From NCBI RefSeq assembly GCF_963921235.1, contig NC_086108.1, positions 36,334,001 to 36,398,000 on the forward strand: a stretch of DNA of 64,000 nucleotides, read 5' to 3'. The notes under the pieces were generated by a model. The model did not search any database, was not told the DNA's origin, and saw only the letters and a list, made by a program, of their open reading frames with translations. The stretch comes from Mobula hypostoma (Eukaryota). Both the position numbers and the translations under genes were made by a program. Shown one piece after another: positions 187 through 55,170 of this stretch. The first letter of the stretch is position 1, and each line of letters opens with the position of its first letter.

Positions 187-669
187 TGTAATATGAGGCT
201 CCTTAACAAGATGAAATCCTATGGCTTTACAGGAAAATTATTGGCATCGATAGAGGAATGGCTGACAGGCAGGAGGCATTGAGTGGGAATAAAGGAGGAA
301 TTTTCTGGTTGGCTGCTAGTGGCTGGTGGTGTTCCTTGGGGTCAGTATTGGGACCGCTACTTTTCACATTGTTTGTCAGTGATTTAGATAATGCAATTGA
401 TGGCTTTATGGCAAAGCTTCTGGATGATACAAAGATAGGTAGAGGGGTAGGAAGTGCTGAGGAAGCATTGCAATTGCAGCTGGATTTAGATAAATTGGAA
501 GAATCGACAAAAATGTGGCAGATGGAATGCTGTGTTGGGAAATGTATGATAATGTGTTTTGGTAAAAGGAACAATAATGCAGGCTATTATCTAAATGGGG
601 AGAAACTTTGAACATCAGAGGTACAGAGGGACTTAGGAATCTTCGTGCAAGACTCGCAGAAGATTAATT

Positions 670-1949
670 GGAAGAGGTAGAGTCGACGTTTCAGGCTGAG
701 ACCCTTCGTCAGGACTAACTGAAGGAAGAGTTAGTAAGAGATTTGAAAGTTGGAGGGGGAGGGGGAGATCCAAAATGATAGGAGAAGACAGGAGGGGGAG
801 GGATGGAGCCAAGAGCTGGACAGGTGATTGGCAAAGGGGATATGAGAGCATCATGGGACAGGAGGCCCAGGGAGAAAGACAAGGGTGGGGGGGTACCCAG
901 AGGATGGGCAAGGGGTATAGTCAGAGGGACAGAGGGAGAAAAAGGAGAGTGAGAGAAAGAATGTGTGTATAAAAATAAATAACAGATGGGGTACGAGGGG
1001 GAGGTGGGGCATTAGCGAAAGTTAGAGAAGTCAATGTTCATACCATCAAGTTGGAGGCTATCCAGACGGAATATAAGGTGTTGTTCCTTCAACCTGAGTG
1101 TGGCTTCATCTTTACAGTAGAGGAGCCCGTGGATAGACATGTCAGAATGGGAATGGGATGAGGAATTAAAATGTGTGGCCCCAGAGAGTCCTTCCAGGTG
1201 AGGCGACACTTCACCTGTGAGTCGGCTGGGGTGATATACTGCGTCCGGTGCTCCCGATGTGGCCTTCTATAGGCGAGACCCGACGCAGACTGGGAGACCG
1301 CTTTGCTGAACACCCACACTCTGTCCGCCAGAGAAAGCAGGATCTCCCAGTGCCCACACATTTTAATTCCACATCCCATTCCCATTCTGACATGTCTATC
1401 CACGGCTTCCTCTACTGTAAAGGTGAAGCCACACTCAGGTTGGAGGAACAACACCTTATATTCCGTCTGGGCAGCCTCCAACCTGATGGCATGAACATTG
1501 ACTTCTCTAACTTCCGCTAATGCCCCACCTCCCCCTCGTACCCCATCCATTATTTACTTTTATACACACATTCTTTCTCTCACTCTCCTTTTTCTCCCTC
1601 TGTCCCTCTGACTATACCCCTTGCCCATCCTCTGAGTCCCCCCCACCCCTTGTCTTTCTCCCCGGATCTCCTGTCCCATGATCCTGTCATATCCCCTTTG
1701 CCAATCACCTGTCCAGCTCTTGGCTCCATCCCTCCCCCTCCTGTCTTCTCCTATCATTTTGGATCTCCCCCTCCCCCTCCCACTTTCAAATCTCTTACTA
1801 ACTCTTCCTTCAGTTAGTCCTGACGAAGGGTCTCGGCCTGAAACATCAACTGTACCTCTTCCTGGAGATGCTGCCTGGCCTGCTGCATTCACCAGCAACT
1901 TTGATGGGTGTTGCTTGAATTTCCAGCATCTGCAGAATTCCTGTTGTTT
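670..1949. mobile_element. Penelope-like element, inverted tails-outward duplication of the GIY-YIG end and 3' region
   Basis: Minus arm 670-1180, plus arm ~1177-1949 (IGETRRRLGDRFAEH...GMNIDFSNFR). Flanked by direct repeat gcagaagattaatt at 656-669 and 1950-1963. Confidence 0.9.
681..716 (-). ncRNA. Minimal hammerhead motif (intact core)
   Basis: Reverse complement agtcctgacgaagggtctcagcctgaaacgtcgact. Confidence 0.75.
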
Positions 1950-2532
1950 GCAGAAGATTAATTTACAGGTTGAGTCTGTGGTAAAGAAGGCAAATGCAAT
2001 GTTGGCATTTATTTGAAGGGGAACATAATATAAAAGGAAGGAGATAATGCTGAGGCTTTATAAGACACTAGTCAGGCCGCACTTGGAGTATTGTCAACAG
2101 TTTTGGGCCCCATACCTCAGAAGGGATGTATTGTCATTGGAGAGAGTCCAGAGGAGGTTCATTAGGATGATTCTGGAAATGAAAGGGTTAACATATGAGG
2201 AGCCTTATGGCAGCTTTGGGCCTGTATTCACTGGGATTTATAAGAATGTGGGGGGTTGGGATCTCATTGAAACCCACTGAATGTTGAAAGGACTAGATAA
2301 GGTGGATGTGATGTTTCCTATGGTGGGGGTATCCAGAATCAGAAGGCACAGCCTCAAAATTGAGGGGCAACCTTTTAGAACGAGGTGAGGAGGATTTTTT
2401 TTAGCCGGAGAGTAGTGAATCTGTGCAGTGCTCTGCCACAGACTGCGGCGGAGGCCAAGTCCATGAGTATATTTAAATTGGAAGTTGATAGTTTCATGAC
2501 TGGTCAGGGCGTCAAAGGTTATGGCGAGAAGG

Positions 2533-7003: not shown

Positions 7004-7859
7004 TACTTAGTTTGCCCACCATTTTCTTGACCCCATTACTACCTCTCCAGCATTGTTTTCCAGTAGCCCAATATCCACTCTCACCTCTCTTTTATACTTT
7101 GTATCTGAAAAACTTTTGGTATCCTCTTTAATATTATTGGTTAGCTTATTTTTGTATTCCATCTTTTCCTGAATGACTTTTTTAGTTGTCTTCTGTTGGT
7201 TTTTAAAAGCTTCCCAATCCTCTAACTTCCCACTAATTTTTGCTGTATTATGTGCCCTCTCTTTGGCCTTTATGTTGCCTTTGACTTCCTTGTTAGCCAC
7301 AGTTGTGTAATCTTGCTGTTAGAATGCTACTTACTCTTTGGGATGTATACTGAACCTTCTAAATTCCAGGAAGTCTAGCCATTGCTGTTCTGATGTCTTC
7401 CCTGCAGGTGTTCTTTTCCAATCAGTTTTGATCAAATCTTCTTTTAATTCCCTTAACTCCACTGTAATACTGATACATATGACTTTAGCTTCTGCTTTTC
7501 AAATTTCAGGGTGAATTTGATCATATTATGATCCCTTGTCCCTAAGTGTTCCTTTACCTTCAGCTCTCTGATCAATTCTGGTTCATTGCAGAACACTCAA
7601 TCCAGAATAGTTGATCCCCTGGTATGCTAAACCACGACCTACTCTGAAAAACCACCTCGTAAGCATTCTATAATTCCCCCTTTTGGGATCCAGCCCCAAC
7701 CTAATTTTCCCAAGCTGCCTGCATACTGAAATCCCCCATTGCTATTGTATCTTTGCCCTTTGACATGTGTTTTTTATTACCTGCTGTAATATGTAAACCA
7801 TATCCTTATTACTGTTTGGGGGTTTATATAACTCCTATCAGGATCTTTTTACCCTTGCA

Positions 7860-8027
7860 ACACACAAAATGCTGGAGAAACACAGCAGGCAACATCTATG
7901 GAAAATAGTTAACATTCGATGTTTTGGGCCGAGACCCTTATCAGGATATGTGATGCTGTCTGGCCTGCTGAGTTCCTCCAGCATTTTGTGTGTGTTGCTT
8001 AGATTTACAGCATCTGCTGATTTTATC
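7860..8027. mobile_element. Short inverted (palindromic) Penelope-derived 3'-end insertion
   Basis: Arms acacacaaaatgctggag... / ...ctccagcattttgtgtgtgttgc; 17-bp direct repeat atctttttacccttgca at 7843-7859 and 8028-8044. Confidence 0.75.
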
Positions 8028-8249
8028 ATCTTTTTACCCTTGCATTACCTTAGCTCTATCCACAATGATTCAGCACCTTCTGACCTATGTCACCTCTTTC
8101 TCATGATTTGATTTCACTTTTACCAAATGACCCATGCCACCCCCTCTGCCTACCCGCCTGTCCTTTTGCTACAATGTGTATCCTTGGACGTTAAGCTCCC
8201 AGCTACAACCTTCCTTCAGCCATGATCCATCAATGCCTACAACCTGATG

Positions 8250-17725: not shown

Positions 17726-18880
17726 ATAAAAGTAAGGTGTCTCTCCTTCTCCAGCTAAGGTTACAAATGAGGTCCTCTACTTGGGTAGTAAAGTTAATAC
17801 TTCCCTATCGCCTGTGGCTAAAACAAATTACTCTTTAATTTTGAAAAAAATAGAAGATATTAATAGATGGAGACACCTGCCACCATCAGTCCCAGCCCAT
17901 ATATCGGTCATTAAAATGAACATCTTACCCTGCATTGATTTTATCGGCTCAATGATCCCACTTGCGCCTTCAGCAGGATATTGGCAAAAATTGGACTCTT
18001 TACTATGATGCTATGTTTGGAACAGTAAACAACCCAATATAAAGTGGTTAGCTCTACAATTCAAAAAGTCAGATGGGGGATTGGCATGTCCAAATTTTAA
18101 ATTTTATCACTGGGCATTTGTCTTAGCTATTGGATGGAGGAGGATAAAGTTTTGTCATGGAAAAATATAGAACAAGAGCTAATAGCACCAATAAGGTTGA
18201 AGGACTTTCTCCTTATAGGTATGTCTACCAAAAAATGTGATTTGTATTACGGTCCAATTTTAACCCATATGCTACAAGTTAGAGCAGCAGAAAAATTCCT
18301 AAAATTTAAAAGCGTATGGTGCAAATCATCTCCATTATGGAACAATAATCATCTTCTAACTGGAGAGAAACCATTCACTAACAGAACTTGAGAGGATAAA
18401 GGTATTACTACTCTTCAAGATATTAATGGGGCAAGTACTATCCTTAACTTTCAAGAACTGGTATCTCGATATAATATTGATAAACACTCTCTTTTCTTCT
18501 ACTTCAGAGTAAGATCAGCGTGTAAAGCCTATGGGGTTACCTGGGGGTCAGATTTAAAGGACCAAACCATTTTAAGTTGGATACAGAGTGCTCCAGGACA
18601 GATAGTGTCATATATCTATGATAAATTAAACTCCCAGAAATATATGCCCATATCAGGAATGAAAGCCTGGGATAGGGACATATCTGAATTGGGACAAGAC
18701 TAGACTGGGATGTGATTTGGGATAATGCTGCCGGTGCTTCGAAAAACCCAAATCATCAGTATATACACTTGAAATTTTGTCATAGAGCATATTTAACACC
18801 GAGAATTAGACATCAAATGGGACTGGTTCCTGATCCATATTGCTCATTTTGTTCCCAAAGAGCCATTGGCTCTTATATAT

Positions 18881-19066
18881 AAGCAACACACATCAAAGTT
18901 GCTGGTGAACGCAGCAGGCCAGGCAGTATCTCTAGGAAGAGGTACAGTCGACGTTTCAGGCGAGACTGTACCTCTTCCTAGAGATGCTGCCTGGCCTGCT
19001 GCGTTCACCAGCAACTTTGATGTGTGTTGCTTGAATTTCCAGCATCTGCAGAATTCCTCTTGTTTG
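18881..19066. mobile_element. Mini inverted Penelope 3'-end insertion nested in L1
   Basis: ~70-bp near-perfect palindrome of the Penelope terminus; imperfect duplication ttggctctt(a/t)ta on both sides. Confidence 0.85.
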
Positions 19067-20441
19067 GCTCTTTTATACATGTTGAATGGGAATGTCCAGG
19101 GGTTTTTGATTTGTGGGGGAAGGTTATCAGTACTCTTACAGAACTAATGGGGGTACAATTACCAATGGACCCTGCTGTACGTCTTCTTAATGGTGACTCT
19201 CACCTTTCCCTTACGGAAAAAAACACGCAAAGTCTGGCTGGCAGGCCTGACTGCAGCTAAGAAGGTTGTAGTCCTGTTGGAAACCTCCTCATGATATTTC
19301 AAGTACTCACTGGCTTCGGAGCTCTTTGGACATTTCTTACCTGGAACTATCATCAGCAAGAGTAAATGATGCATGACCAAACACAATCTTAATGTGGACA
19401 AATTTGATATCTAACTTAAAAGATCTTCTGTTAAAATAGGAATGCTCTGTCTGTGTATGCACTGCTATTCAGTTGGTTGGTGGAGGGGAGAGGGGCGGAG
19501 AGGGGGGTGGGGATGAAGAAGAGGTGGGAAGGATGGTGATGTAGGTTGGGGGTGGCTGGGTTAAACAGTTAAAATGTAATCGGCAACTGGTTGTATTGAA
19601 TGCAATTTGTTGGTGTTGCAATAAAAAATTAGTGATTTTAAAAAAAAGAAAATTAAAGAAGAGTAATTAGAAGCTGTATCTTCACCTATGACTGGGGGAG
19701 TAAGTAATTCCTATCACATGGAGAAGTTGAGGCAACAGACTAGTTTTGAAAGGAAGCAAGATAATGAGGGAAACGTGAGATTTGTTGCTGCCTATATTGC
19801 AATATTATGAGTGGGTTGTGAACATGATGGACAAAGTCAGTATGCCTATACTCTACATTCATGGGTCTGTAAATAACATTCACTGAATGAACAATTTGCG
19901 TACAAGGACATACAAATATCTGTCCTTGCCACCCTTCACTTCATATAATACTTCATATTTCACTTCATGGACTCAAGTGTTCTTTCCAGATGAAGCTGCA
20001 GTTCACTTGTACTTCCAATTCACTGGGGTATTGTTAATGAGGAAATTGCCAATTCAGTTGGCAAGTTAGCCTGGCAGAGACTGCTGTTCAAATACATAGT
20101 TTATCATATAAACCAAAACTATTCTACTATCTACATCGAGAATGCTTTTCTCTTGAAATTCAAATGCTCTTCAGAATTTTTGTGAGTGTTATTTTGTGAG
20201 CTTAGGCTTGCCTGTTATGTTTTCTGGAAGCAGGTTATTGTCTAAAATTCTCAAATATTGCTGAATGTTTCTTGATTCACGTTTGCAAAAGTGAAACTTG
20301 TGCAAGTCATGAATGCTTTGTTCTTCCCTGTGATTGTCTTTTCAGAAGCCACTGCAAAAAAATTGCATTCCAAATTTTTTTTAGGCTAGCAATACCAGAG
20401 AATTTCAGACTGTCTTAACTTTTACACATCATATCTTTCAG

Positions 20442-22040: not shown

Positions 22041-22734
22041 TCCTCCCGTCTTGACTGGAAGCCCAACCTTGCATGCATTTGCTTGCATAAAGAAATTAAA
22101 CTATATTTAGAACTCCAGGCATATTTCCATATGATTGAGTTTTGTACTTAAGTAAATTTGTTACTAAAACTAACTTATCAATTGCTTTCCCAATTGTTTG
22201 TTGTATATGTGTGTTAATTGCTTGTTCATGTATCACAATGCTCAGGTTTCCATTGATTGCCAAATTTCTCAGAACTTTGCCTATATTTATACCAAAGTGA
22301 ATAACTCAAGTGAATCACATTCTATTCCAGATAGTGTGCGATGTAGTTTCCCATTTATTTAACACAGAATCAGGATCAGGTTTAACATCACTAGCATATG
22401 TCATGAAATTTGTTTTGCAGCAGCAGTACTTGCTGTACATAATAATAAAAAATCTAAATTACAATAAATATTATTCAAAATTAAATAAGCAGTGGAGAAA
22501 GACAGGAAGAAAAAAATTAATTCTCCATTTAGAAATCTGATGACTGAGGGGAAGAAGCTGTTCCTGATACACTGGTGTGTGTCCTCATGCTCCTTTATGT
22601 CCTTCTTGATGTCTGCAATGAGAAGAGGGCATGTCCTGGGTGATGGGAGTCATTAATGATGGATGCTGCATTTTGGAATATCCTTGATGCTGGGAAGGCT
22701 AGTGCCCATGATGGAGCTGGTTGGGTTTACAACC

Positions 22735-24300
22735 TTGTTTTCTGCATTAATTATTCATAAAATGTGGTCTCATCTTCATCTTCATCTAAGTCACAATAAT
22801 AGACAAATAATCTGTAAACTAATAACACGCAAACAATTGTACTTTTCATGTCTTTATCGAACACATTGCTTAATCATTCACAGTCCAGGCTGGAAAAAGT
22901 ATGTGAACCCTTGTATTTAATAACTAGTAGAACCTCCTTTAGCAGCAATAACCTTCACCAAATGTTTCTTGTAACCGCTTATCAGACTTGCACAACGACG
23001 AGGAGGAACTTGAGACCATTCTTCCATACAAAACTCTTTTAGTTCATCAGTATTTCTGGGATACCTTACATGTACAGTTTTCTTCAGGTCATGTTACAAT
23101 ATCTCAATTGGATTAAGGTCTGAACTCTGACTTGGCCATACCAAAACAGGAAATTTCTTCTTTTAAAGCTATTCTGTTGTTGATTTACTGTTGTGTTTCA
23201 GATCATTGTTGCATCATCCAACTTCTATTAATTTTCAAGTGACTGACTGCTACCTTGATATTCTCCTGTAAAATGTCTTGATTTCATTCTTCCGTCAATG
23301 ATTGCAAGCTGTCCAGGCCCTGAGACAGCAAAGCAACCACAAACCATGATGCTCCTTCTACTATGCTTCACAGTTGTGATGAGGTTTCGCTGTTGGTGTG
23401 CAGTTCCCTTTTTCCTCCAAACATAGCAGTGTGCATTTCTGCCAAAAAGTTCAATTTTTGTCAGATTTGTCCACAGAACATTGTCCCAGAAGGTTTGAGG
23501 AGCATCTAGGTGGTTGTTTGAAAACTTGAGTTGTGCTGCAATGTTTTTTTTTGGAGAGCAGTGGTTTCCTTTCTGGTATCCTTCCATTAACACTATTTTT
23601 GTTCAGTGTTTTTCTTATAGTGGATACATGAACAGAGACTTTAGCAAGTTCTAGAGATTTCTGCAAGTCTTTTGCTGTTACCCTTGGGTTCTTTTTCACC
23701 TCCTTCAGCATTGCACGTTGTACTCTTGGTATGATATTTACGGGATGCCCACTCCTAGGGAGAGTAGCAACAGTTCTGACTGACTTCCATTTGTAGACAT
23801 TTTCTCTTACTGTGGACTGACGAACACTCAAGTCTTTAGAAATGCTGTTGTAGCCTTTCCCAGCTTCATACATCTCTACAATTCTTCTAAGGCCCTCTGA
23901 AAGTTGTTTTGATTGAGGCACAGTGCACATGAAGCAGATGTTTCTTGAGAAGATATGGCTCTGTCAGTAACCCGACTTTGTGTGTCTTTTTTATAGGATA
24001 GGGCACCTCTACAACCCACACCTCCAATCTCATCTCATTGATTGGAACACCTGACTCCAAAGAGCTTTTGTTGAAGGCATTAACCCAGAAGTTCACACAC
24101 TTTCTGGAAGCTAGACTGTGATAGTTTTAATAGTGTACTCAGTATTGACGAGAAGTACAATTGTTTTGCTTGTTTTTAGTTTAGGCAGATGGTGTTTGTC
24201 TATTGTTGTGACTTAGATGAAGATCAGACCACATTTTATGAGTAATTAATGCAGAAAGCCAGGTAATTGTGAAGGATTCGCAAACTTTTTCTTGATACTG
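22735..24300 (-). mobile_element. Tc1/mariner transposon with long (~200 bp) TIRs and decayed transposase, within Rex1 fragments (22530-22735, 24303-24740)
   Basis: ORFs with HVSTIRKTL, FWDNVLWT..TKIELFG and TVKHS..SIMVCGCF. 22735-22910 is the inverse of ~24090-24265; right end ...ctg|TA. Confidence 0.9.
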
Positions 24301-26789: not shown

Positions 26790-29755
26790 TCCACAGCAGG
26801 GGTGTGTGAAAAGAGCTACTTTTTGAATCAGGGTAGAGATCCAAGTTTTGAAGGCAGAGTTTCGTGACAGTTTTTTTCTGATTTGAGGAGCGAACAATCA
26901 GCAAGTGGCAGTGCAAAAAGGAGCTATCTTTTCAGTCAGGTCTGCATTTCTACATTGGAGATTTGAAAAGCAGAGTTCCAGCCAGTTTTCTCTGAGTTGG
27001 ACAATTCGTGCACGAAAAGAGCTACTTTTTAATCAGAGTGCCAGTTTCAGGTTTTGAAGGCAGAGTTTTGCAGTAGTTTTTCTGATTTGAGGAGTGACCA
27101 GTCAGCAAAAGGGTTTCATTAGAAAGGGCAAATAGGAATAATTCAAGTGAAACCAAGCAGCCATTCTTTTGAGTGCGCCATTCTTTAGAATGGCTTTGGC
27201 TCATCGGGCTTAGGTGAGATCAGGTTTGGGTGAGGTAGATTGTCTTGTAACTTTGTCTCTCTCTCTGTTCTTATTTGTTCATTCCTCATCTATTAGTGCA
27301 TAGTATAGTGAGAATGGCTCCAGAGGCAGTGTTTTGTGCTGTGTGTGGGATGAGGGAATATTATAGTGGGGAGCTGAATGTCCAGGGATACACATTATAT
27401 CAAAAGGTCAGGCAGGAAAGCAAAGGGGGTGGTGTGGCTTTGTTGGTAAAAAATGAAATTAAATCATTAGAAAGTGGTGACATAGGATCAGAAAATGTAG
27501 ACTCATTGTGGATAGAGCTAAGGAACTGCAAGGGTAAAAAGACCCTGATGAAAGTTATATATAGACCCCCAAACAGTAGTAAGGAGGTAGTCTACAAGTT
27601 ACAACGGGAGGCAGAAAATGCATGCCAAAAGGATGTTAGAATAGTCTTAGGGGATTTCAGTGTGCAGGTAGATTGGGAAAACCAGGTTGGTGCTGGATTC
27701 CAAGAGCGGGAATTTCTGGAATGCCTACGAGATGGCTTTTTAGAGCAGCTCTTGGTTGATCCCACTTGGGGATCAGCTGTTCTGGATTGGGTGTTGTGTA
27801 ATGAACTGAAATTGATTAGAGAGCTTAAGGTAAAGGAAGTCTTAGGGGAAAATGATCATAATATGATCAAATTCACTCTGGTACTTGAGAGCTAAAGTCA
27901 GATGTATAATTATTGCAGTGGAGTAAAGGAAATTACAGAGGCATGAGAGAGGAATTGCCCAGAGTTGATTGGAAAAGAACACTGGCAGGGATGATGGCAG
28001 AGCAGCAATGGCACAGGATATATACATCCCAAAGAGGAAGCAGTCTTCTAAAGGAAAGATGACACAACCATGGCTAACAAGGTAAGTCAAGGCCAACATA
28101 AAAGCTAAAGTGAGGACATATAATAGAACAAAATTTAGTGGGAATTAGGAAGCTTTTAAATACCAACAGAAAGCAATTGAAAAAGTGATTAAGAAGCTAA
28201 AGATGGAATACGAAGGTAAGCTAGCCAATAATATTAAAGATGATACCAAAAGTTTCTTCAGGTACATAAAGGGTAAAAGAGAGGGAAGAGTGGATATTGG
28301 ACTGCTGGAAAATGATGCTGAATAGACAGTAATGGGGGTCAAGGAAATGGCACATGTACTGATTTAAGTATTTTGCATCAGTCTTCACTATGGAAGACGC
28401 TAGCAGTATGTTGAAAGTTCCAGATGAAGTGTGTGAAGTTACCATTACGAGAGAGAAGGTTCTTGGGAAACTGAAAGGTTTGAAGGTAAATAAGTCACCT
28501 GGACAAAATTATTTATGCTCCAGGGCTCTGAAAGAGGTGGCTGAAGAGATTGTTGAGATTTTGGAATAGTTCTGAAAGACTGAAAAATTACAAATGTCAC
28601 TCCATGCAGCTAGGAAATTATAGGCCAGTTAGTCTGACCTCAGTGGCTGGGAAGATATTGGAGTTTGATAATTAAAGATGTAGTTTCAGGGCACCTAATA
28701 AAATAGACTGTAGTCAGCATGGTCTTCTCAAGTGAAAGTATTGCCTGACAAATCAATTGGAATTCTTTGAAGAAATAACAAACATGTTAGATAAAAGTTG
28801 ATGTGTGCTTGGATTTTCAGAAGGCCTTTGACAAAGTGCCTCACATGAGGCTGCTTAACAAGCTACGAGCCCGTGGTATTACAGGAAAGATACTAGCATG
28901 GGTAAAACAGTGGCTGATTGGCAGCGGACAAAGAGTGGGAATAAAAGGTGCCTTATCTGTTTGGCTGCCAGTGACTAGTGGTGTTTCACAGAGTTCTGTG
29001 TTGGGATCGATTCTTTTTACGTTATATGTCAATGATTTGGATGATGGAATTGATGGCTTTGTTGCAAAGTTTGCAGATGATATGAAGATAGGTGGAGGGG
29101 CAGATAAGTTTGTGGAAATAGGGTGGCTATAGAAGGACTTAAACAGATTAGGAGAATGGGTAAAGAAGTGGTAGATGGAATACGGTGTCAGGAAGTGTAT
29201 GCTCATGCACTTCGGTAGAAAAAATGAAAGGTTGATTATTTTCTAAATGGAGAGAAAATACAAAAATCTAAGGTGCAAAGGGATTTGGGAGTCCTTGTGT
29301 AGGATTCCCTAAAGGTTAATTTGCAGTTTGAGTCTGGTGAGGAAGGTAAGTGCGATGTTGGCATTTATTTCAAGAGGATTAGAATATAAAAGCAAGGTTG
29401 TAATGTTGAGACTATAAAGCACTGGTGAGGCCTCACTTGGCGTATTGTGTGGAGCTAAGACCTGAGGACATAGCCTCAAAATAGAGTGGCATCCTTATAG
29501 AACAGAGATGAAGAATTTCTTTAGCCAGAGTGTGGTGAATCTGTGGAATTAGTTGCCACAGGCAGCTGTGGAAGCAAAGTCTTTATGTGTATTTGAGGCA
29601 GAGGTTGATAGATTCTCAATTGGTCAGGGCGTGAAGGGATGTGGGGGGAGGGTAGGAGATTGGGGCTGAGAGGATAAATGCATTAGTCATGATGAAATGG
29701 CAGAACAGACTCGATGGGCCAAATGGGCTAATTCTGCTCCTATATTATTGTCTTT
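26790..29755 (+). mobile_element. Long CR1 LINE with internal deletions, inserted in a Rex1 3' tail inside the ERV integrase region
   Basis: EN ORF 27275-27895 (GGGVALLV, VIYRPPN, GDFS, NDHN); RT motifs (DFQKAFDKVPH, FADD); CR1 3' tail at ~29730. Confidence 0.88.
26800..27110 (+). repeat. Three diverged ~100-bp tandem units at the CR1 5' end
   Basis: Repeated gaaaagagctacttttt..ttttgaaggcagagtt..tctgatttgaggag at ~26805, ~26912 and ~27012. Confidence 0.65.
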
Positions 29756-31971: not shown

Positions 31972-33310
31972 CTTCAAAGTTCAAAGTAAAGTTGAAAGTA
32001 AATTTTTCATCGAAGTACATATATGTTACCAAATACAGGTGTCCCCCGTTTTACGAAAGTTTGCTTTACGCCACTTCGCTTTTACAAAAGACCTACATTA
32101 GTACCTGTTTTCGCTAATCAAGAGAAATCAGGAGGATTTTCGCTTTTATGAAAAAAGGCGCCTGCTTTAAACTTGTGTTTACCCCGAGAAAGACTACCAT
32201 GACTGTGAAGCCCTGCGCGGGCAGGTGTGTGTGCGCATGCGTGTATGTGCCAATTTTTTTCCTACAGATCTGTTTTGGCTAAATCTTACCAATTCTGACA
32301 AGTGAAACTACACTGTACATACATTATTTCTACTTTATGTAGGCTGTGTATTTATTATATCATTCCTGCTTTTTACTATATGTTAGTGTTATTTTAGGTT
32401 TTATGTGCTATTTGGTGTAATTTGGTAGGTTATTTTTTGGGTCTGGGAATGCTCAAAAATTTTTCCCATATAAATTAATGGTAATTGCTTCTTCACTTTA
32501 CGCCATTTTGGCTTATGAAAGGTTTCATAGAAATGCTCTACTTTTGGATAGCGGGGGAAACCTGTACAGTCCTGAGATTTACTTTCCTGTGGGCAATCAG
32601 AGTAAATACAAGAAGTACGATAGAATCTATGAAAGACTGCATTCAACAGGAAGGACAAGCAACCAATATGGAAAAGACAGCAAACTGCAAATACAATAAG
32701 AAAGAAAAAGAGAAATGATAATAATAAATAAATATGCAATAAATATTGAGAACATGAGATGAGTCCTTGAAAGTGAGCCAATGTGTTGTGGGAACAGGTC
32801 AGTGATAGGGTGAGTGCAGTAATCTCTGCTTCAAGAGCCACGTGGTTTGAGAGGTGATAATTGTTCCTGAACTTGGTGGTGTGGGCCCTGAGGCTCCTGT
32901 ACCTCCTTCCTGATGGCAGCAGCAAGAAGAGAGCATGGCGTGAATTGTGGGGGTTCTTGATGATAGATGCAGCTTTCCTGCAACAGTGCTGCATGTAGGT
33001 GTGCTCAGTGGTATCCATGATGGACTTGGCCGTAACCACTACTTTTTGTCGGCTTTTCTGTTCAAGAGGATTGGTGTTTCCGTAGTAGTCAATATACTCT
33101 CCACGACACATGTATGGAAGTTTGTCAAAGTTTTGCCTGAAAATGGTGAAGTTTACAAACTCTTAAGGAAGTAGAGGTGCTACTGTGCTTTCTCTATAAT
33201 GGCACTTATATGCTGGACAGATTCTCTGGAATGATAACACAGAGGCACTTAAAGTTGCTTACCCTCTGCACCTTTGATCCCCCGGTGATGACTGGCTTGT
33301 GGACTAGTTT
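31972..33310 (-). mobile_element. Rex1/Babar 3' fragment split by a Tigger MITE
   Basis: CCRKAASIIKNPH..LFLLLPSGRRYRSL motif; tail repeats ttcaaag. Confidence 0.75.
32036..32564. mobile_element. Tigger-type MITE
   Basis: TA|caggtgtcccccg...cgggggaaacctg|TA; same family as 54299-55170. Confidence 0.85.
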
Positions 33311-33622: not shown

Positions 33623-34385
33623 GAATTTAAATCTTCTTTGCCACAGGATTTAAGTGAGACCCTCTCTCATTGCTCCCCCTCTGTGATTTCTGCTTTCCCC
33701 TGGCTCTTTGAGCATGTGTTCAACTAGCACCTATTACCTTCTAGCTTTTCCTCCTCCCCACCCCCAACCTATTTATTCTGTCATCTTCCCCCTTCTTTTC
33801 CAGCCATGATGAAGGGTCTCAGCCTGAATCATTGAATGTTTATCCCTTTCCATAGCTGCTACCTGACCTACTGAATTCCTTCAGCATTCTGTGTGTGCTG
33901 CTCTTACCTCCTGTTTAGGTGCCTAAAATTTAGGTGCCTAAAATTTCTCACTTGGTTTGGGATTCTTCCAATAAATCTTTGTAACCATCCTGCTGATTAC
34001 GCGAAATAGTTAGATTCTAATGTTTTAATTCAGGTACTTTTAGAGGTCTGGAGAGAGGCATAAAACTTGTTGTTTCACGATTGTTTTATTAAGCGCGAAT
34101 AGAAAAGAGAACATTAAAAATGGACAGTAACAAGAGCAGAGGCAACTAAGTTAAGGGAGAGGGAAACAAAAGCAATGCAGACCAAAGACTAAAAGATTGC
34201 GGAGCCTGAGATCATCTCTTTTTACACCCCAAAGATAAGGAACGTTCCATTCATATTCTGAGGTAAGAGTTACCTTATTCAAATAATGCAGCACCAGAAG
34301 CTTCCAGAGCTTTCCAGAATCATACAGATGCAACCTTTAGGAGACACACTGAACAACTGCATATACGTACTTGTGGTTACTAGGA

Positions 34386-35900: not shown

Positions 35901-37149
35901 AAGTTTAGACCATACTATGAAACCCACTTTATCTCATTTCTACTATTTAATATGAAATGTTGGCATACAATTTAGTTTTGCAGTGTTAAAGCCTGGAAGA
36001 TTAGGTCGTTATATGCATATTGTGACCATATTATGATTGAACACGCATTCAGACTTTATTTTTGTGATAGCAAAGGTTTCCATAAAGTTTTAACCATCAT
36101 TAAACAAATAGGCAATTTGCAAAAAATTGTTCATCATTGACCATATATATGAGCAACCTACTGGTCCAAACTAATGGCAACTATTCACACTTCTTTTTCT
36201 ATATGGAGGTGATCAATCACTGAGCTATACATGGCTGCCAGAGAAGTTCCTGACAGGTAAAGCACTAAGCTTAGACCAGGTTTGATTTGATTGGTGGTGA
36301 CCTTGGTCATAATCTGATGTGACATGTGACAATGAGATGCTCTGCCAGTTTCTGATGATCTGCCTTTGTGGATTCTGAAACCTCACCAGCTGGACGCATA
36401 GTGTTGTAGATTTCAGCAGGTGTGGGCTGATCAGGTGCAGAGCTAAGCAGAGCATGGCCAGGCCATCATTTTCAGGAGTTTTACTTGCCTTAAACAAGCA
36501 GACTTGCTCTTACACACATTGATCCAGACTCTCCCATTTGCTGTCATTTAACATTTCTGAGATAGAAGACAGGTAATTATAGCAGCCTGTATTATCTGTT
36601 GTCTTTAAATTATTTAATTTAGCACTCGAGGACTTGTAAAACCTTAACACATTTTACTGATCCATCCTCTTCTTTAAGATTGCTCGTCTGAACTTTTTTG
36701 AAGAAACATGAGCATTTTTCATCTTGGTCCACAAAATGAACTGTGGGTTGGAAGCTGACTTGAAAGGATGGAAGCACAGAATAATGTTTGCTGTCTCTTT
36801 AGGAACATCTAAGAGACAAATGGCTGAAGAAGGAGAAATCTGATGGGAGGGGACTGGCTTCTGCCCACTTCTTTTCCAGTCCTGATGAAAGTTCTCGGCC
36901 CAAAATATCGATTGTTCATTTCCCTCCATTGGCACGGCCTGTCCTGCTGAGTTCTTCCAGCATCTTATGTGTGAAGCTCAAGATTTCCAGCATGCAGATA
37001 ATCTATTGTGTTTAAGTTTGGGGCAGCCATCTCCATTTAAAATTTCTGAGCTGAATTGGTATTTCACCAGTCTGTCAGTTTTACAATCTTGTCATGTGTT
37101 AAATGGCATTTCAGTTATGGCTAGTACTATTCTGTTATACATTAGAGTA

Positions 37150-47724: not shown

Positions 47725-50310
47725 ACAACATAAAAATCCTGGAGATTCTTAGCAGGTTGGACATCATTTATGGAAGGAGATAAACAGAGGACATTTTGGA
47801 CTGAGACTAGTAAAGGCATCCATTAGTCTTGTGAGACCATGGATCTGCGCTTGGAAAGTCATCACTCTCTAGGTTACAGGCGTGGGCAAGGTTGTACGGG
47901 AGACCAGCAGTTGCCCATGCTGCAAGTCTCCCCTCTCCACGACACCGATATTGTCCAAGGGAAGGGCATTAGGACCCATACAGCTTGGCACCAGTGTGGT
48001 TGCAGAGCAATGTGTGATTAAGTGCCTTGCTCAAGGACACAACACGTTCCCTCGGCTGGGGCTCGAACTCACGACCTGCAGGTCACTCGTCCAACGCCTT
48101 AACCACTTGGCCACATGACTGAGACTAAAACCTAGAAAAAATATCGGAAGTAGAAAGAGGCCAGAATAAAAGGGTGAGGGAGGGGAGGAGCACAAGCAGA
48201 CAGGTGATGTCAGATGAAAGGGAGAAAGATAAGTGGGAGAGATGGGGGAGAGGAAATAATGTGAGAATCTGCATTGGAGATGACCAAAATGGGATATGAG
48301 GTGCTGTTCCACTAGTCTGTGTCTAGTATTGTGGGAATGGTTTTGGGGGCAGTGCAGGAAGTTAAGAGACAGGTTAGGGTTTAAGGATAGGGATGAGAGC
48401 AGTTAACGATCGGGGCAGTAAATGAAGAGTCGCTGGTGAACAGGTCAGCGAGTCCAGGGATCAGATGTCCATGTGGACTGGAGGCACAGCACAGGTGACA
48501 CTCCAGGTTTGCGAGTCCCAGGCTTGGAGTCTGTGCAAGTCCAGAGTTTGTGATCCGGGCTTCAAATTCCTGTGATCAGCAGGACTTGGGGTCAATACCA
48601 AAGGCCGAAGCCTGAAATCCAAGACTGAAATTGGTGAATCCAGAAGTGAGGCTCGATGGTCAAAGTCCCTGGCTTGACATGTTTCTGTGTCGGGACCCGA
48701 TGACTGCAAGTCCAGGCCAGGAACTGGGCGTTGGAGACAGCCTGTCCTGGGTTATGTGTGAGTGAGTGGGTGGTTGGGAAGTAGGAAAAGGGTTTGTTTT
48801 TTGTTGTTATTATGTTTTATTGCTGGTGTTTTGTTGTTGTTGCTTGTGTTCTTTCGCTGAACATTGTGGGCATGCTGTGTTAGTGACAGAATACGTAGCA
48901 GCGCTTGTCAGGTGCCCCAGCATACCCTTAGGTTGTGTTGGTTGTTAATGTAAATGACACATTTTACTGTGTGTTTCATTGTACATGTGATAAATAAATA
49001 CATCTAAACCTAAGTTTGGCAGTACAGGAGGCTGTGGACAAAAGTGTCAGTGTAGGTATGGGAAGTGGAATTAAGTTGTCCGGCCACTGAGAGATCCTGG
49101 CTGATGAGGCAAACAGCTTGAAGGTGTGTGACGCAGTGACCTTCTCTGCCTCCCCAACCCCCCCATTCCCTCTCCAGTTGCATTGGGGCTCCCCAGTGTA
49201 GCACAGGTCACACTCGGAGCATAGAATCTAGAAAGTGATACTAATGATTTACACAGGAAGTGCTGCCTCACTAGAAGAACTGTTTAGGCCTCTGAATGGT
49301 GCTGAGAAAGAAACTGTAGGAACAGGTGTGATATTTGAGACAGTTCAGGCATAAATGCCTCGGGGAGTGGAATTGGTGGGGCAGGAGGAAAGGACAAGAG
49401 ATTTGCAGAGAAAGAGATTCATCCAATAAGTGAAGGTGGGGGCGGGGGGAGAGATGTATCTGGTGGTGGGATCATGTTGGCGATGCAGGAAGTTGTGAAG
49501 AACGATGTGTTGGATGTGGAAACTCGTGTAATGGTAGGTGTGAAGAAGGGGAACCTATCTCTATTACGTAGGGTGGGCAAGTGGTGCGAGGGCAGATGTG
49601 GAAAAGATGCGAATGACATCTGCATTTATAGCAGTGGAGGGGAAACCCTGTTTCCTGGGGAAAAAATGACATTTTGGATGTCCTGGAATGGGAAGTCTCA
49701 TTATAAAAACAGATGTGGCAGAGATAAAGGAAATAACAGAAGGTGGTAGCATCCTTGCAAATGACGTGATAAGAAGAGCTGTAGTCAAGGTAACTGGAAG
49801 TCATTTGGTTTGTAAACAATGTCAGTAGATAATCTGTTGGTGAGACCCATTACACATTAGGGAATTGCTTCATTAGGTACCTTCACCCTGTCTGCCGTAA
49901 CAGCCAGAATCTCCTGGTGGCCAGCTGTTATAATTCCACTTCCCATTCATGCATTGATGTGTATACCAATGGCCTACTTTACTGCCAGGTTGTGGCTAGA
50001 CACACACTAGAGGAACAAAACAAAACTTCATGTTTTGTCATGGTAGTCTCCAACCTGACGGTATCTAGCTTCCATTAACCACTCCCTTCTGCCTCCCCTC
50101 CCCCTTTTGTGTTGTCTTATCTCTCTGACCCAAATACTTCTTTTTCCTCTACCCCACCCTGATAACTTGCCCATCCGCCACATCTTCCTCCCTCTGCTTT
50201 CCCACCTCCTTCCTTTTATCCTATAATCCACTGCCCTGTTCTATCAGATTTTATCTTCCTTAGCCCTTTGCCTCTTCCACCCATCACCTCCCAGCTTCTT
50301 GCATCAATGA
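47725..50310. mobile_element. Old, diverged inverted Penelope (minus arm ~47725-49840, plus arm ~49840-50310) with nested SINE and another insert (~48330-49010)
   Basis: Minus: SYLDYSSSY.VICKDA and MEQHLIS peptides; plus: GIY-YIG-like tggtgagaccc...ctagaggaacaa. Confidence 0.6.
47810..48116 (-). mobile_element. tRNA-derived SINE with TSD
   Basis: A box tggccaagtgg, B box gttcgagcc; TSD gactgagacta at 47799-47809 and 48117-48127. Confidence 0.85.
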
Positions 50311-51162
50311 ACAAAAATAGACTATGTGTCAGTGCTTTTGCTGGAGCAAATACGGGGGAGGGTTGATGCTTGTGCTGCTGCTTATTTGTGGGAGAGGGAG
50401 GGGGACGGGTGCTTTGGGGTACTGAATTTTCTATCATTCTTTGGGTCTTTTCTGTTTTGTGGATGTCTGCAAAAAGTAAGAATTTTAGGTTCTATACTGT
50501 ACATTCTCTAATGTTAAACCATTGAATCCTCATCTGTCATTTTTCATGTAAACACTTTGCTTGCGAAGGGGGCTGTGATGGATAGATTAATGAAGGTATC
50601 ATTGTGAATGCAGGAAGAATAGGGATTGTGAACAGGGTTAGGAGCAGCATAGTTAGAAACGAGTGATTGTCAGGAAGGAATTCTGAATTTGCTATTGGTG
50701 TTGATCAAATGGAGATACTGAATACAGTTCACTATGTGAGGAAGGACTGGGCATTAAAAAGATACAGGAAAGGATAAATAAATTGACAGCTGCAATTATG
50801 CAAGTGATCTGTGAGGCAAGGTTAGAGAAGCTTTGGCAAATAAAAGTTAAATATCATGATTGCTGACATTTCTGGGTGTGATTTATTTTTGTTGTATGCA
50901 CTTCCTCAGTTCCCTTAAGCTGCTTAACCCTGTTGATCTTTTAGTAATAAACTGAAGAAGAACTTTGCTGCTATTGATAATGACCCTCCCTTTTGTTCTT
51001 ACTTGGAGGGAGATCAAATTAATCCAAGTTTGCATTGAAGTCTGAAATTGTAATAGAAAAACGCAAACAACAGGAATTCTGCAGATGCTGGAAATTCAAG
51101 CAACACACATCAAAGTTGCTGGTGAACGCAGCAGGCCAGGCAGCATCTATAGGAAGAGGTGC

Positions 51163-51198
51163 AGTCGACGTTTCAGGCCGAGACCCTTCGTCAGGACT
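51163..51198 (-). ncRNA. Minimal hammerhead motif (mirror copy, intact)
   Basis: Exact reverse complement of 54133-54168. Confidence 0.8.
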
Positions 51199-51928
51199 AA
51201 CTGAAGGAAGAGTGAGTAAGGGATTAGAAAGCTGGAGGGGGAGATGCAAAATGATAGGAGAAGACAGGAGGGGGAGGGATGGAGCCGAGAGCTGGACAGG
51301 TGATAGGCAGAAGGGGATACGAGAGGATCATGGGACAGGAGGTCCGGGAAGAAAGACGGGGGGGTGGGGGTGACCCAGAGGATGGGCAAGAGGTATATTC
51401 AGAGGGACAGAGGGAGAAAAAGGAGAGTGAGAGAAAGAATGTGTGCATAAAAAAGAGTAACAGATGGGGTACGAGGGGGAGGTGGGCCTAGCGGAAGTTA
51501 GAGAAGTCAATGTTCATGCCATCAGGTTGGAGGCTACCCAGACGGAATATAAGGTGTTGTTCCTCCAACCTGAGTGTGACTTCATCTTTACAGTAGAGGA
51601 GGCCGTGGATAGACATGTCAGAATGGGAATGGGATGTGGAATTAAAATGTGTGGCCACTGGGAGATCCTGCTTTCTCTGGCGGACAGAGCGTAGATGTTC
51701 AGCAAAGCGGTCTCCCAGTCTGCGTCGGGTCTCACCAATATATAAAAGGCCACATCGGGAGCACCGGACGCAGTATATCACCCCAGTCGACTCACAGGTG
51801 AAGTGATGCCTCACCTGGAAGGACTGTTTGGGGCCCTGTGTAGCACTTGTTCCGCTTACACGGATAAGTGCCAGGAGGGAGATCAGTGGGGAGGGATGGG
51901 GGGGACGAATGGACAAGGGAGTTGTGTA

Positions 51929-53834
51929 CGGGACATCAACCGTCTCGACTTCACTGCACCTTGTCCCCATTCCAACCTCACTCCTTCGGAACGCTCTGCT
52001 CTCCACTCCCTCCGCACTAATCCTAACATTATTATTAAACCCGCTGATAAAGGGGGTGCTGTTGTAGTCTGGCGTACTGACCTCTACCTTGCCGAGGCAC
52101 AGCGACAACTCGCGGATACCTCCTCTTATTTACCCCTCGATCGTGACCCCACTAAGGAGCACCAGGCCATTGTCTCCCACACTATCAACGACTTTATCCG
52201 CTCAGGGGATCTCCCATCCACTGCTACCAACCTTATAGTTCCCACACCCCGCACTTCCCGTTTCTACCTCCTACCCAAGATCCACAAACCTGCCTGTCCT
52301 GGCCGACCTATTGTCTCAGCTTGCTCCTGCCCCACCGAACTCGTTTCTGCATACCTCGACACTGTTTTATCACCCCTTGTTCAATCCCTTCCGACCTATG
52401 TTCGTGACACTTCTCACGCTCTTAAACTTTTCGATGATTTTAAGTTCCCTGGCCCCCACCGCTTTATTTTCACCATGGATGTCCAGTCCCTATATACTTC
52501 CATCCCCCATCAGGAAGGTCTCAAAGCTCTACGCTTCTTTTTGGATTCCAGACCTAATCAGTTCCCCTCTACCACCACTCTGCTCCGTCTAGCAGAATTA
52601 GTCCTTACTCTTAATAATTTCTCCTTTTGCTCCTCCCATTTCCTCCAAACTAAAGGTGTAGCTTTGGGCACCCGTATGGGTCCTAGCTATGCCTGCCTTT
52701 TTAGTTGGGTTTGTGGAACAATCTATGTTCCGTGCCTATTCTGGTATCTGTCCCCCACTTTTCCTTCGCTACATCGACGACTGCATTGGCGCTGCTTCCT
52801 GCACGCATGCAGAACTCGTTGACTTTATTAACTTTGCCTCCAACTTTCACCCTGCCCTCAAGTTTACCTGGTCCATTTCCGACACCTCCCTCCCCTTTCT
52901 AGATCTTTCTGTCTCTGTCTCTGGAGACAGCTTATCCACTGATGTCTACTATAAGCCTACTGACTCTCACAGCTATCTGGACTATTCCTCTTCTCACCCT
53001 GTCTCTTGCAAAAATGCCATCCCCTTCTCGCAATTCCTCCGTCTCCGCCGCATCTGCTCTCAGGATGAGGCTTTTCATTCTAGGACGAGGGAGATGTCTT
53101 CCTTTTTTAAAGAAAGGGGCTTCCCTTCCTCCACTATCAACTCTGCTCTTAAATGCATCTCCCCCATTTCACGTACATCTGCTCTCACTCCATCCTCCCA
53201 CCACCCCACTAGGAATAGGGTTCCCCTGGTCCTCACCTACCACCCCACCAGCCTCCGGGTGCAACATATTATTCTCCGTAACTTCCGCCACCTCCAACGG
53301 GATCCCACCACTAAGCATATCTTTCCCTCCCCCCCCCTCTGCATTCCGCAGGGATCGCTCCCTACACAACTCCCTTGTCCATTCGTCCCCCCCATCCCTC
53401 CCCACTAATCTCCCTCCTGGCACTTATCCGTGTAAGCGGAACAAGTGCTACACATGCCCTTACACTTCCTCCCTTACCACCATTCAGGGCCCCAAACAGT
53501 CCTTCCAGGTGAGGCATCACTTCACCTGTGAGTCGACTGGGGTGATATACTGCGTCCGGTGCTCCCGATGTGGCCTTTTATATATTGGTGAGACCCGACG
53601 CAGACTGGGAGACCGCTTTGCTGAACATCTACGCTCTGTCCGCCAGAGAAAGCAGGATCTCCCAGTGGCCACACATTTTAATTCCACATCCCATTCCCAT
53701 TCTGACATGTCTATCCACGGCCTCCTCTACTGTAAAGATGAAGCCACACTCAGGTTGGAGGAACAACACCTTATATTCCGTATGGGTAGCCTTAACCTGA
53801 TGGCATGAACATTGACTTCTCTAACTTCCGCTAG
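51929..53834 (+). pseudogene. Penelope-like RT + GIY-YIG endonuclease ORF, 5'-truncated, about three frameshifts
   Basis: KPADKGG, FYLLPKIHK, GRPIVS, MDVQSLYTSIPH, RYIDD, Cys-rich linker CKRNKCYTC, and VIYCVRCSRCGLLYIGET...RFAEH. Confidence 0.93.
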
Positions 53835-54132
53835 GCCCCACCTCCCCCTCGTACCCCATCTGTTACTCTTTTTTATGCACACATTCTTTCTCTCACTCTC
53901 CTTTTTCTCCCTCTGTCCCTCTGAATATACCTCTTGCCCATCCTCTGTGTCACCCCCACCCCCCCCCGTCTTTCTTCCCGGACCTCCTGTCCCATGATCC
54001 TCTCGTATCCCCTTCTGCCTATCACCTGTCCAGCTCTCGGCTCCATCCCTCCCCCTCCTGTCTTCTCCTATCATTTTGCATCTCCCCCTCCCCCTCCAGC
54101 TTTCTAATCCCTTACTCACTCTTCCTTCAGTT

Positions 54133-54168
54133 AGTCCTGACGAAGGGTCTCGGCCTGAAACGTCGACT
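54133..54168 (+). ncRNA. Minimal type I hammerhead ribozyme motif in the Penelope 3' terminal region
   Basis: AGUC-CUGACGA-A-GGGU(CUCG)GCCU-GAAA-C-GUC/GACU: helix I AGUC/GACU, both core boxes, helix II, palindromic ACGU in place of helix III, GUC cleavage triplet. Confidence 0.8.
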
Positions 54169-54298
54169 GCACCTCTTCCTATAGATGCTGCCTGGCCTGC
54201 TGCGTTCACCAGCAACTTTGATGTGTGTTGCTTGTAATAGAAAACTTGTTATTGACAGTATTAGATTTCTTGGGATTGTTCCAGTAGGGAATTTATTA

Positions 54299-55170
54299 CA
54301 GGTTTCTCCCGCTATCCGAAGGTAGAGCATTCCTATGAAACCGTTCGTAAGCCAGAATGTTGTAAAGTGAATAAGCAATTGCCATTTATTAATATGGGAA
54401 AAATGTTTGAGCGTTCCCAGACCCAAAAAAAATAACCTAGAAAATCATGCCAAATAACACATAAGTCCTAAAATAACAGTAACATGTAGTAAAAGCAGGA
54501 ATGATATGATAAATACACAGCATATATAAAGTAGAAATACTTCACTGTGGCGCAGTCTAGCGCAGCGAAAATCTCACGGCAGCACTGTCGGTGGAAGTGC
54601 TCTTGGCAGAAATACTCTCTCTGGTAACCTTTAAGCTATGAAGCTGCAAATCATACCAAATAACACATAAAAATACACAGCCTATATAAAGTAGAAATAA
54701 TGTATGTACAGTGTAGTTTCACTTACTGGAATCGGGAAGACTTCAATAAATTGCAGTTTCGTCACAGTTTAACACTTGCTTATATGAATAAACACCTTCT
54801 GTATTATTTTCTTTAGTTCTGCTGGGAACTTTTCGGCAGCTTCAGTACCAGCCGAAGCGCTCTGTCCGGTAAACGTTAAACTATGAAGCTGCCCTCACCT
54901 CAGAAACCGATCAAACCACCCATGACTACCTTTAAATTCCACTTTCACAACACTTTCGTCACCATCGTTCAGTGCTTTCTGTTTCAGCTTATTAAAAAGA
55001 CTGACTGATTTCTCCTTAAGTATAAGAAAACTTAACGGAACACCACGCTTTTTACACCCGTCAATCCACTCAAGCAATAGACTTTCCATTTTATCCATTA
55101 TTGGATGCCGACTAAGAGAGACCACATTGCTACGAGCAGAACCAACAGTAACATCGGCAGCTTTGAAGTT
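54299..55170 (-). mobile_element. Tigger remnant with one TIR and a CENP-B HTH fragment
   Basis: TA|caggtttctcccgctatcc; peptide MESLLLEWI...FKGSHGWFDRF. Confidence 0.8.

What the first reader, a model, noticed from the sequence alone, without database searches (positions are those of the whole stretch)
51061..54234. Tails-outward inverted Penelope insertion whose two arms come from one template
Seen: the ~870-bp minus arm mirrors the 3' part of the plus arm. Both share private variants (tgcataaaaaagag, ccgctaggccc, gaggcatcac) that are absent from the copy at 670-1949. One 10-13 bp TSD flanks the whole unit. The minus arm has a 32-bp deletion (53455-53486 equivalent) at a CA microhomology. 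Inference: one integration event in which both target strands primed reverse transcription near the RNA 3' end. This differs from L1 twin priming, where the inverted piece does not duplicate the 3' end. Inverted pseudo-LTR arrangements are known for PLEs, but this is a clean mechanistic example.
Basis: partly seen in the sequence, partly recalled or inferred. Interest (0 to 1): 0.72.

Follow-up and report, generated by a model that had tools for sequence, protein, structure and literature searches.

The report
Typical two-armed Penelope retroelement insertion
This is a real, fairly young single insertion of a Penelope-like jumping gene whose end was copied twice in mirror image, which is the usual and already described way these elements land, so it is a tidy example rather than a new mechanism.

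Summary
The structure is real. A 13-bp duplication (51048-60/54232-44) flanks an inverted arm (51061-51928) and a 5'-truncated RT-GIY-YIG arm (51929-54234). The arms differ by 5 substitutions in 831 bases and 5 indels, including the 32-bp deletion. Contigs of two related organisms stop at the duplication and do not enter the element, as an empty site would.

The layout is ordinary. An inverted truncated copy plus a one-sided 30-40-bp tail is the published typical Penelope-like insertion.

One other shared letter is rare (at most 0.3%). So one event and a close donor lineage are supported; one RNA molecule is not shown.

Neither arm contains the other, which excludes a simple fold-back. It fits priming of both target strands at two start sites 36 nt apart, each step shown in vitro for another Penelope-like element. 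Low interest.

The parts
51048..51060 (+). left copy of the target-site duplication TTGTAATAGAAAA
   Evidence: contigs of runs X5 and X15 align up to 51060 and then leave the stretch (table 8)
51061..51096 (-). 36-nt tail, present on this arm only
   Evidence: the same tail ends the plus arms at 1177-1951 and 18964-19066
51061..51928 (-). inverted arm: tail, 3' UTR with hammerhead-like motif, GIY-YIG coding part; 32-bp deletion near 51838 removes part of the zinc-finger-like linker
   Evidence: (PF01541, E 2.8e-4, just under the curated cut-off)
51160..51203 (-). minimal type-I hammerhead-like motif (CUGACGA core, short helix II, GAAA, palindromic ACGU in place of helix III)
   Evidence: motif scan and reading by eye; no Rfam hit at gathering score; cleavage not tested
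51925..51933 (.). head-to-head junction at 51928/51929; no palindrome; an offset 4-letter match (GGGA) between the two arm ends
   Evidence: relatives' proteins match the plus arm from the RDINRL motif onward
51929..53805 (+). 5'-truncated, dead ORF: RT (PADKG, YIDD), CX5CX2C linker, GIY-YIG; broken by frameshifts near 52700 and 53335, and damaged again near 53793
   Evidence: tblastn of P0006 residues 257-876 in three frames; 77% identity to P0001
53363..54234 (+). part of the plus arm mirrored by the inverted arm; ends without the tail
54128..54171 (+). minimal hammerhead-like motif of the plus arm
54232..54244 (+). right copy of the target-site duplication
656..1963 (.). unit B, same layout: minus arm 667-1192, plus arm 1177-1951 with tail, 14-bp duplication, GGCC overlap at the junction; arms 5.5% apart
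   Evidence: another copy of the host repeat (29053-29448) runs through the site uninterrupted
18866..19077 (.). unit C, same layout in miniature: minus arm 18881-18966, plus arm 18964-19066 with tail, 14-bp duplication with 1 mismatch, GAC overlap
7843..8044 (.). unit D, same layout, older or sister subfamily (75-84% identity): minus arm 7857-7946, plus arm from 7952 with tail, duplication up to 17 bp

Best explanation
One insertion of an endonuclease-positive Penelope-like element (Neptune-type linker), dead on arrival. Its endonuclease nicked both strands of an AT-rich site 10-13 bases apart. Each nick primed reverse transcription on element RNA: one at the inner start site (54234, no tail), running about 2.3 kb into the RT region; the other 36 nt further 3' (tail end, 51061), running about 0.87 kb. 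The two cDNA ends were joined head-to-head and the gaps filled, giving tails-outward arms in one duplication. Shown here: the anatomy, the single duplication, non-nested arms, close kinship of the arms. Shown for another PLE in vitro: both-strand nicking and extension, and two start sites that define the tail. Inferred: that these steps made this unit, and the end-joining. Open: one RNA or two sibling transcripts, and whether the 32-bp deletion arose during copying or later.
For: 13-bp duplication against at most 9 bp in 2998 random pairs. Contigs of organisms B and E stop at 51060 and continue unaligned for 78 and 138 letters; 78 letters would end 26 letters into the repeat that starts at 54297, where a contig should break. 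Arms 0.60% apart, about 7% from unit B's arms, and closer than the flank is to organism B (8 of 599, 1.3%), as expected if the insertion is younger than that split. Each arm holds sequence the other lacks; the same holds for units C and D. A rare letter at 51226 (at most 0.32% of X1 depth) is on both arms. Junction overlaps of 4 and 3 letters in B and C. PAc cleaves and extends both strands, and its tail lies between two RT start sites (PMC11167929).
Against: Sequence alone cannot separate this from a self-primed palindromic intermediate trimmed by the endonuclease (PMC3846280 discussion; PMC8557442): both predict the same short inverted match at the junction. Unit B's minus arm is nested in its plus arm and ends 52 bases short of the usual site, so it does not need two primings. 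A's own junction has only an offset 4-letter match. No listed contig bridged the inner junction (the table was cut), run X1 crosses the left junction by only 21 letters, the right junction was not in the stretch laid, and the letters of the relatives' overhangs were not printed. PAc is a Poseidon-clade element, not this clade.
Confidence: 0.68

Rival explanations
1. Self-priming or cDNA fold-back builds a palindromic intermediate, and the endonuclease trims one end inside the tail on integration. The short arm is then a copy of the long arm's cDNA, and one template follows by necessity.
For: Proposed in print for head-to-head PLE insertions (PMC3846280 discussion); the tail is ascribed to endonuclease resolution in PMC8557442. 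Near-identity of the arms and unit B's nested arms fit.
Against: In A, C and D the tail is on the arm that reaches less far 5', so a plain fold-back cannot supply it without an extra trimming step. No palindrome at A's junction. The later in vitro work maps the tail ends to RT start sites.
Confidence: 0.21
2. Two unrelated donors or two successive insertions at one site, made alike by belonging to one young subfamily or by later gene conversion between the inverted arms.
For: 4 of the 5 shared letters that could be read are common in organism A (23-69% of depth), so kinship of the arms is partly subfamily membership. Unit B's arms are 5.5% apart.
Against: One duplication only; both arms carry the rare letter at 51226; the same layout with one duplication recurs in 4 units; arm divergence is below flank divergence from organism B.
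Confidence: 0.07
3. Assembly fold-back artefact.
For: The inner and right junctions were not confirmed on independent reads; no long reads were seen.
Against: The arms differ at 5 bases and 5 indels, each has sequence the other lacks, the flanks are different, and a duplication closes the unit. An X1 contig matches 50460-51081 with no difference, though X1 may be the assembly's own sample.
Confidence: 0.03

Closest known systems
Typical insertion units of endonuclease-positive PLEs (Craig et al. 2021, PMC8557442; Pen2a_Av and Pen2 in Arkhipova et al. 2013, PMC3846280; D. virilis Penelope, PMC2377424; passages read)
   Same: 5'-truncated copy, adjacent inverted 5'-truncated copy forming inverted repeats round the unit, 30-40-bp tail on one end only, one short duplication (9-10 bp in A. 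vaga), hammerhead motif in the terminal repeat.
   Different: No upstream direct pseudo-LTR or partial tandem, because the long arm is cut inside the RT. The inverted arm reaches into the ORF. No palindrome at the junction.
PAc (Poseidon, Anolis carolinensis) in vitro mechanism (Frangieh et al. 2024, PMC11167929; parts 1-2 of 4 read)
   Same: Both strands cut and extended, AT-rich target, two RT start sites whose distance equals the tail.
   Different: Different clade (this element has the CX2-5CxxC linker). In the text read, the paper does not use its result to explain inverted insertions; its supplementary figures were not visible.
L1 twin priming and the proposed 'dual priming' (Meyer et al. 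2010, PMC2837659; passages read)
   Same: Two cDNAs primed at the two nicks, inverted relative to each other, inside one duplication. Dual priming uses two RNAs, both at their 3' ends, and the authors could not tell it from twin priming.
   Different: In classical twin priming the second primer anneals inside the RNA and the two pieces do not share the 3' region. Here 831 bases are shared and there is no poly(A).

Membership tests
Endonuclease-positive Penelope-like elements | [quoted passage not shown] | tested here: met
   RVT_1 weak (E 0.029) and GIY-YIG (E 2.2e-4), both under the curated cut-offs; colinear with full-length P0006 and P0030 across frameshifts; P0030 passes both Pfam cut-offs
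Endonuclease-positive Penelope-like elements | DKG motif in RT and CCHH motif in the endonuclease | tested here: met
   PADKG, CVRCSRC and two later His residues read in the translations; motif names from PMC8557442 passages; the His assignment is by eye
Endonuclease-positive Penelope-like elements | Inverted truncated copy, one-sided 30-40-bp tail, target-site duplication | tested here: met
   36-nt tail on one arm, 13-bp duplication; definition
Endonuclease-positive Penelope-like elements | Minimal hammerhead motif in the terminal repeat | tested here: inconclusive
   Core motif present on both arms by pattern and like the description in PMC4209133 (part 1 of 4); no Rfam hit; the free-energy fold did not give the hammerhead; activity untested
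Endonuclease-positive Penelope-like elements | Partial tandem with a direct pseudo-LTR upstream of a full ORF | tested here: not met
   This copy is truncated at about residue 257 of an 889-residue relative; expected of a truncated copy, and pseudo-LTR-less copies are known
Neptune (or Nematis) clade | CX2-5CxxC linker before the GIY-YIG domain | tested here: met
   CKRNKCYTC in the plus arm; 63 of the 65 relatives with a recognisable GIY-YIG motif, among 120 listed, have it; absent from Penelope/Poseidon
Neptune (or Nematis) clade | RT tree placement with named Neptune versus Nematis elements | not testable with these tools
   No named clade references among the hits
Classical L1-type twin priming | Inverted piece comes from inside the RNA and does not repeat the 3' region | tested here: not met
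   831 bases are shared by the arms; definition
   Nearest within the window; no genome held; of 19 letters shared by A's arms against B's, 5 were shown: 4 common, 1 rare

The most novel reading that the evidence does not exclude
Both arms were read from one RNA molecule. The first RT starts at the inner site and leaves 36 nt of free RNA behind it; the second nick primes on that free tail and must displace the first cDNA, so it stops earlier. This would explain in one step why only one arm has the tail, and it predicts that the tailed arm is the shorter-reaching one. Here that holds in 3 of 4 units (A, C, D; not B; p = 0.31), so it is a lead only. With the very many copies in this genome it could be tested by counting. 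I found no statement of this rule in the passages read or in searches.
Probability: 0.3. Interest if true: 0.5.

Novelty: new member of a known kind. Interest (0 to 1): 0.22.

Why it matters
By itself it matters little: it is one dead copy in a published layout. Its value is as a clean data point. How PLEs make their inverted insertions is still called undefined in PMC8557442. A young unit with long, non-nested arms and an apparently empty site in relatives links that layout to the two-strand, two-start-site chemistry seen in vitro. A census of arm lengths, tail side and arm-to-arm differences over this abundant family could decide between two-nick priming and fold-back.

Tried and rejected
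No whole genome is held, so the arms could not be compared with all copies. A short pattern for the element end found 0 loci in metagenome, viral and genome contigs. Rfam at gathering score: 0 hits. PDB sequence searches gave no relevant relative. Folding the 3' 158 nt gave z = -0.99, no better than shuffles, so I make no claim about structure at the start sites. The inner junction was not among the contig pieces listed; with 604,196 rows hidden this says nothing either way. Run X17's contig ends at 51050 and is uninformative on the empty site. Runs with small word shares were not used. Rejected: simple fold-back and assembly mirror (arms not nested); the 32-bp gap as an intron (no GT-AG on either strand, by eye) or as the family state; 'private' status of the first word. 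One apparent sixth substitution was an alignment artefact of a 1-base indel. A text search of 3 supplementary files of PMC11167929 found no hits; its supplementary figures were not visible and may bear on the tail-side question.

Full report
Observation. The region holds two mirror arms. Aligned, 51097-51928 (-) and 53363-54234 (+) differ by 5 substitutions in 831 bases and by indels of 32, 1, 1, 2 and 6 bases. A 13-bp word, TTGTAATAGAAAA, lies at 51048-51060 and 54232-54244; three of its letters overlap the element end. The same search at 2998 random position pairs never exceeded 9 bp.

The element. The plus arm encodes RT with PADKG and YIDD, a CKRNKCYTC linker and a GIY-YIG domain (both Pfam hits are under the curated cut-offs). 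It is colinear with residues 257-876 of an 889-residue relative across frameshifts near 52700 and 53335. The best of 120 listed relatives, at 77% identity, is labelled Chiloscyllium punctatum by its source. The CX2-5CxxC linker marks Neptune and Nematis and is absent from Penelope/Poseidon (PMC8557442 passages); 63 of 65 relatives with a recognisable GIY-YIG motif have it. No named references were at hand for a tree, so 'Neptune-type' rests on the motif. Both arms carry a minimal hammerhead-like motif by pattern, of the kind described in PMC4209133 (part 1 of 4 read); Rfam gave no hit. The copy is truncated and dead.

The layout is common. The window holds three more tails-outward pairs, each in one duplication and each with the tail on one arm: 667-1951 (14 bp), 18881-19066 (14 bp, one mismatch) and 7857 to about 8027 (up to 17 bp). 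It interrupts a host repeat whose other copy at 29053-29448 runs through the site. An older head-to-head pair lies at 49020-50021. Three solo end modules had no partner arm. In print, an adjacent inverted 5'-truncated copy and a 30-40-bp tail at one end are described as typical of PLEs (PMC8557442 passages). Pen2a_Av has inverted pLTRs, a 31-bp tail and a 9-bp duplication (PMC3846280 passages). The commonest D. virilis structure has large inverted terminal repeats (PMC2377424 passages).

One event. I laid contigs of 4 of the 23 runs listed on 50300-53340, which covers the left flank, the minus arm and the RT part but not the right junction. A contig of organism A matches 50460-51081 without a difference; it crosses the junction by 21 letters only and may come from the assembly's own sample. 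Contigs of organisms B and E align up to 51060, the last base of the duplication, then run on unaligned for 78 and 138 letters. Those letters were not printed. An empty site predicts that 78 letters end at 54322, 26 letters into a dispersed repeat that starts at 54297, which is where a contig should break. The fourth run was uninformative. The flank differs from organism B at 8 of 599 bases (1.3%), more than the arms differ from each other (0.60%), which fits an insertion after that split with arms alike at the start. No listed piece bridged the inner junction, but the table was cut. An assembly mirror is unlikely, since the arms differ and each has sequence of its own.

One template? Over 503-511 common columns A's arms are 1.0% apart and 6.8-7.5% from B's arms; B's arms are 5.5% apart. 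Nineteen letters are shared by A's arms against both of B's. Five of them appear among the rows shown; 497 rows were hidden. In organism A the window's letter is carried by up to 69% (51446), 54% (51398), 23% (51454) and 23% (51246) of summed contig depth, and by at most 0.32% at 51226. Summed depth is not a copy number and leans towards the reference, but the first four are plainly not private. So the arms belong to a young subfamily and share one rare letter. That supports one donor lineage. It cannot show one RNA molecule: two transcripts of one locus give the same picture, as Meyer et al. noted for L1 twin versus dual priming (PMC2837659 passages).

Mechanism. Read on either strand, the unit cannot be made by one cDNA folding back on itself: the long arm lacks the tail and the short arm lacks the RT part. 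Units C and D are also non-nested; B is nested. The simplest reading is two cDNAs, one from each nick, started at two fixed sites 36 nt apart and joined at their ends. For PAc, purified protein cleaves and extends both strands, prefers AT-rich targets, and starts at two sites that bound the genomic tail (PMC11167929, parts 1-2 of 4 read). The joining step is inferred; B and C show overlaps of 4 and 3 letters, A only an offset 4-letter match. The main rival is a self-primed palindromic intermediate trimmed at one end (PMC3846280 discussion read whole; PMC8557442). It predicts the same junction match and needs one extra step. I give two-nick priming 0.68 and this rival 0.21. The 32-bp deletion is not the family state (542 loose ends in X1 carry the undeleted letters); whether it arose during copying or later cannot be told.

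Novelty. The layout, tail and start sites are known. I found no paper that applies twin or dual priming to PLE inversions: one search listed 3 papers holding both terms, none about PLEs by title (not opened), one search listed 2, and none. The library lacks most subscription papers, and the supplementary figures of PMC11167929 were not visible. Passages of two further preprints added nothing on this point. The boldest reading left is that one RNA serves both primers and the tailed arm is therefore the shorter-reaching one; 3 of 4 units fit (p = 0.31). Earlier notes of this scan describe the same pattern elsewhere in this genome; they are unchecked and are not used as support.

Verdict. Real, single, young, ordinary Penelope-like insertion. 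Interest 0.22.

Noticed in passing
   Followed up: yes
window 18866-19077 and 7843-8044: Two miniature tails-outward units with their own duplications and a one-sided tail.
   Followed up: yes
window 49020-50021: Old (63-73% identity) head-to-head pair of the same element type about 1 kb upstream; ends and duplication not resolved.
   Followed up: partly
window 14101-14217, 33802-33878, 36878-36993: Solo end modules of related subfamilies with a hammerhead-like motif and no partner arm within 1.5 kb.
   Followed up: partly
window 54297-54700 and 32281-32566: A dispersed repeat starting TACAGG, 87% alike between the two places, with an internal duplication; possibly a DNA transposon (by recall, untested).
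   Followed up: partly
window 22732-22908 and 24091-24264: Inverted pair of about 175 bases, 77% alike, 1.2 kb apart, unrelated to the Penelope end; may be terminal repeats of a decayed DNA transposon.
   Followed up: no
window 51014-53340: Contig depth peaks at the hammerhead-and-tail end, about ten times the RT part in run X1, and opposite-strand joints between 51109 and 51197 occur in 3 of 4 runs: short inverted units of this family exist in several organisms.
   Followed up: no
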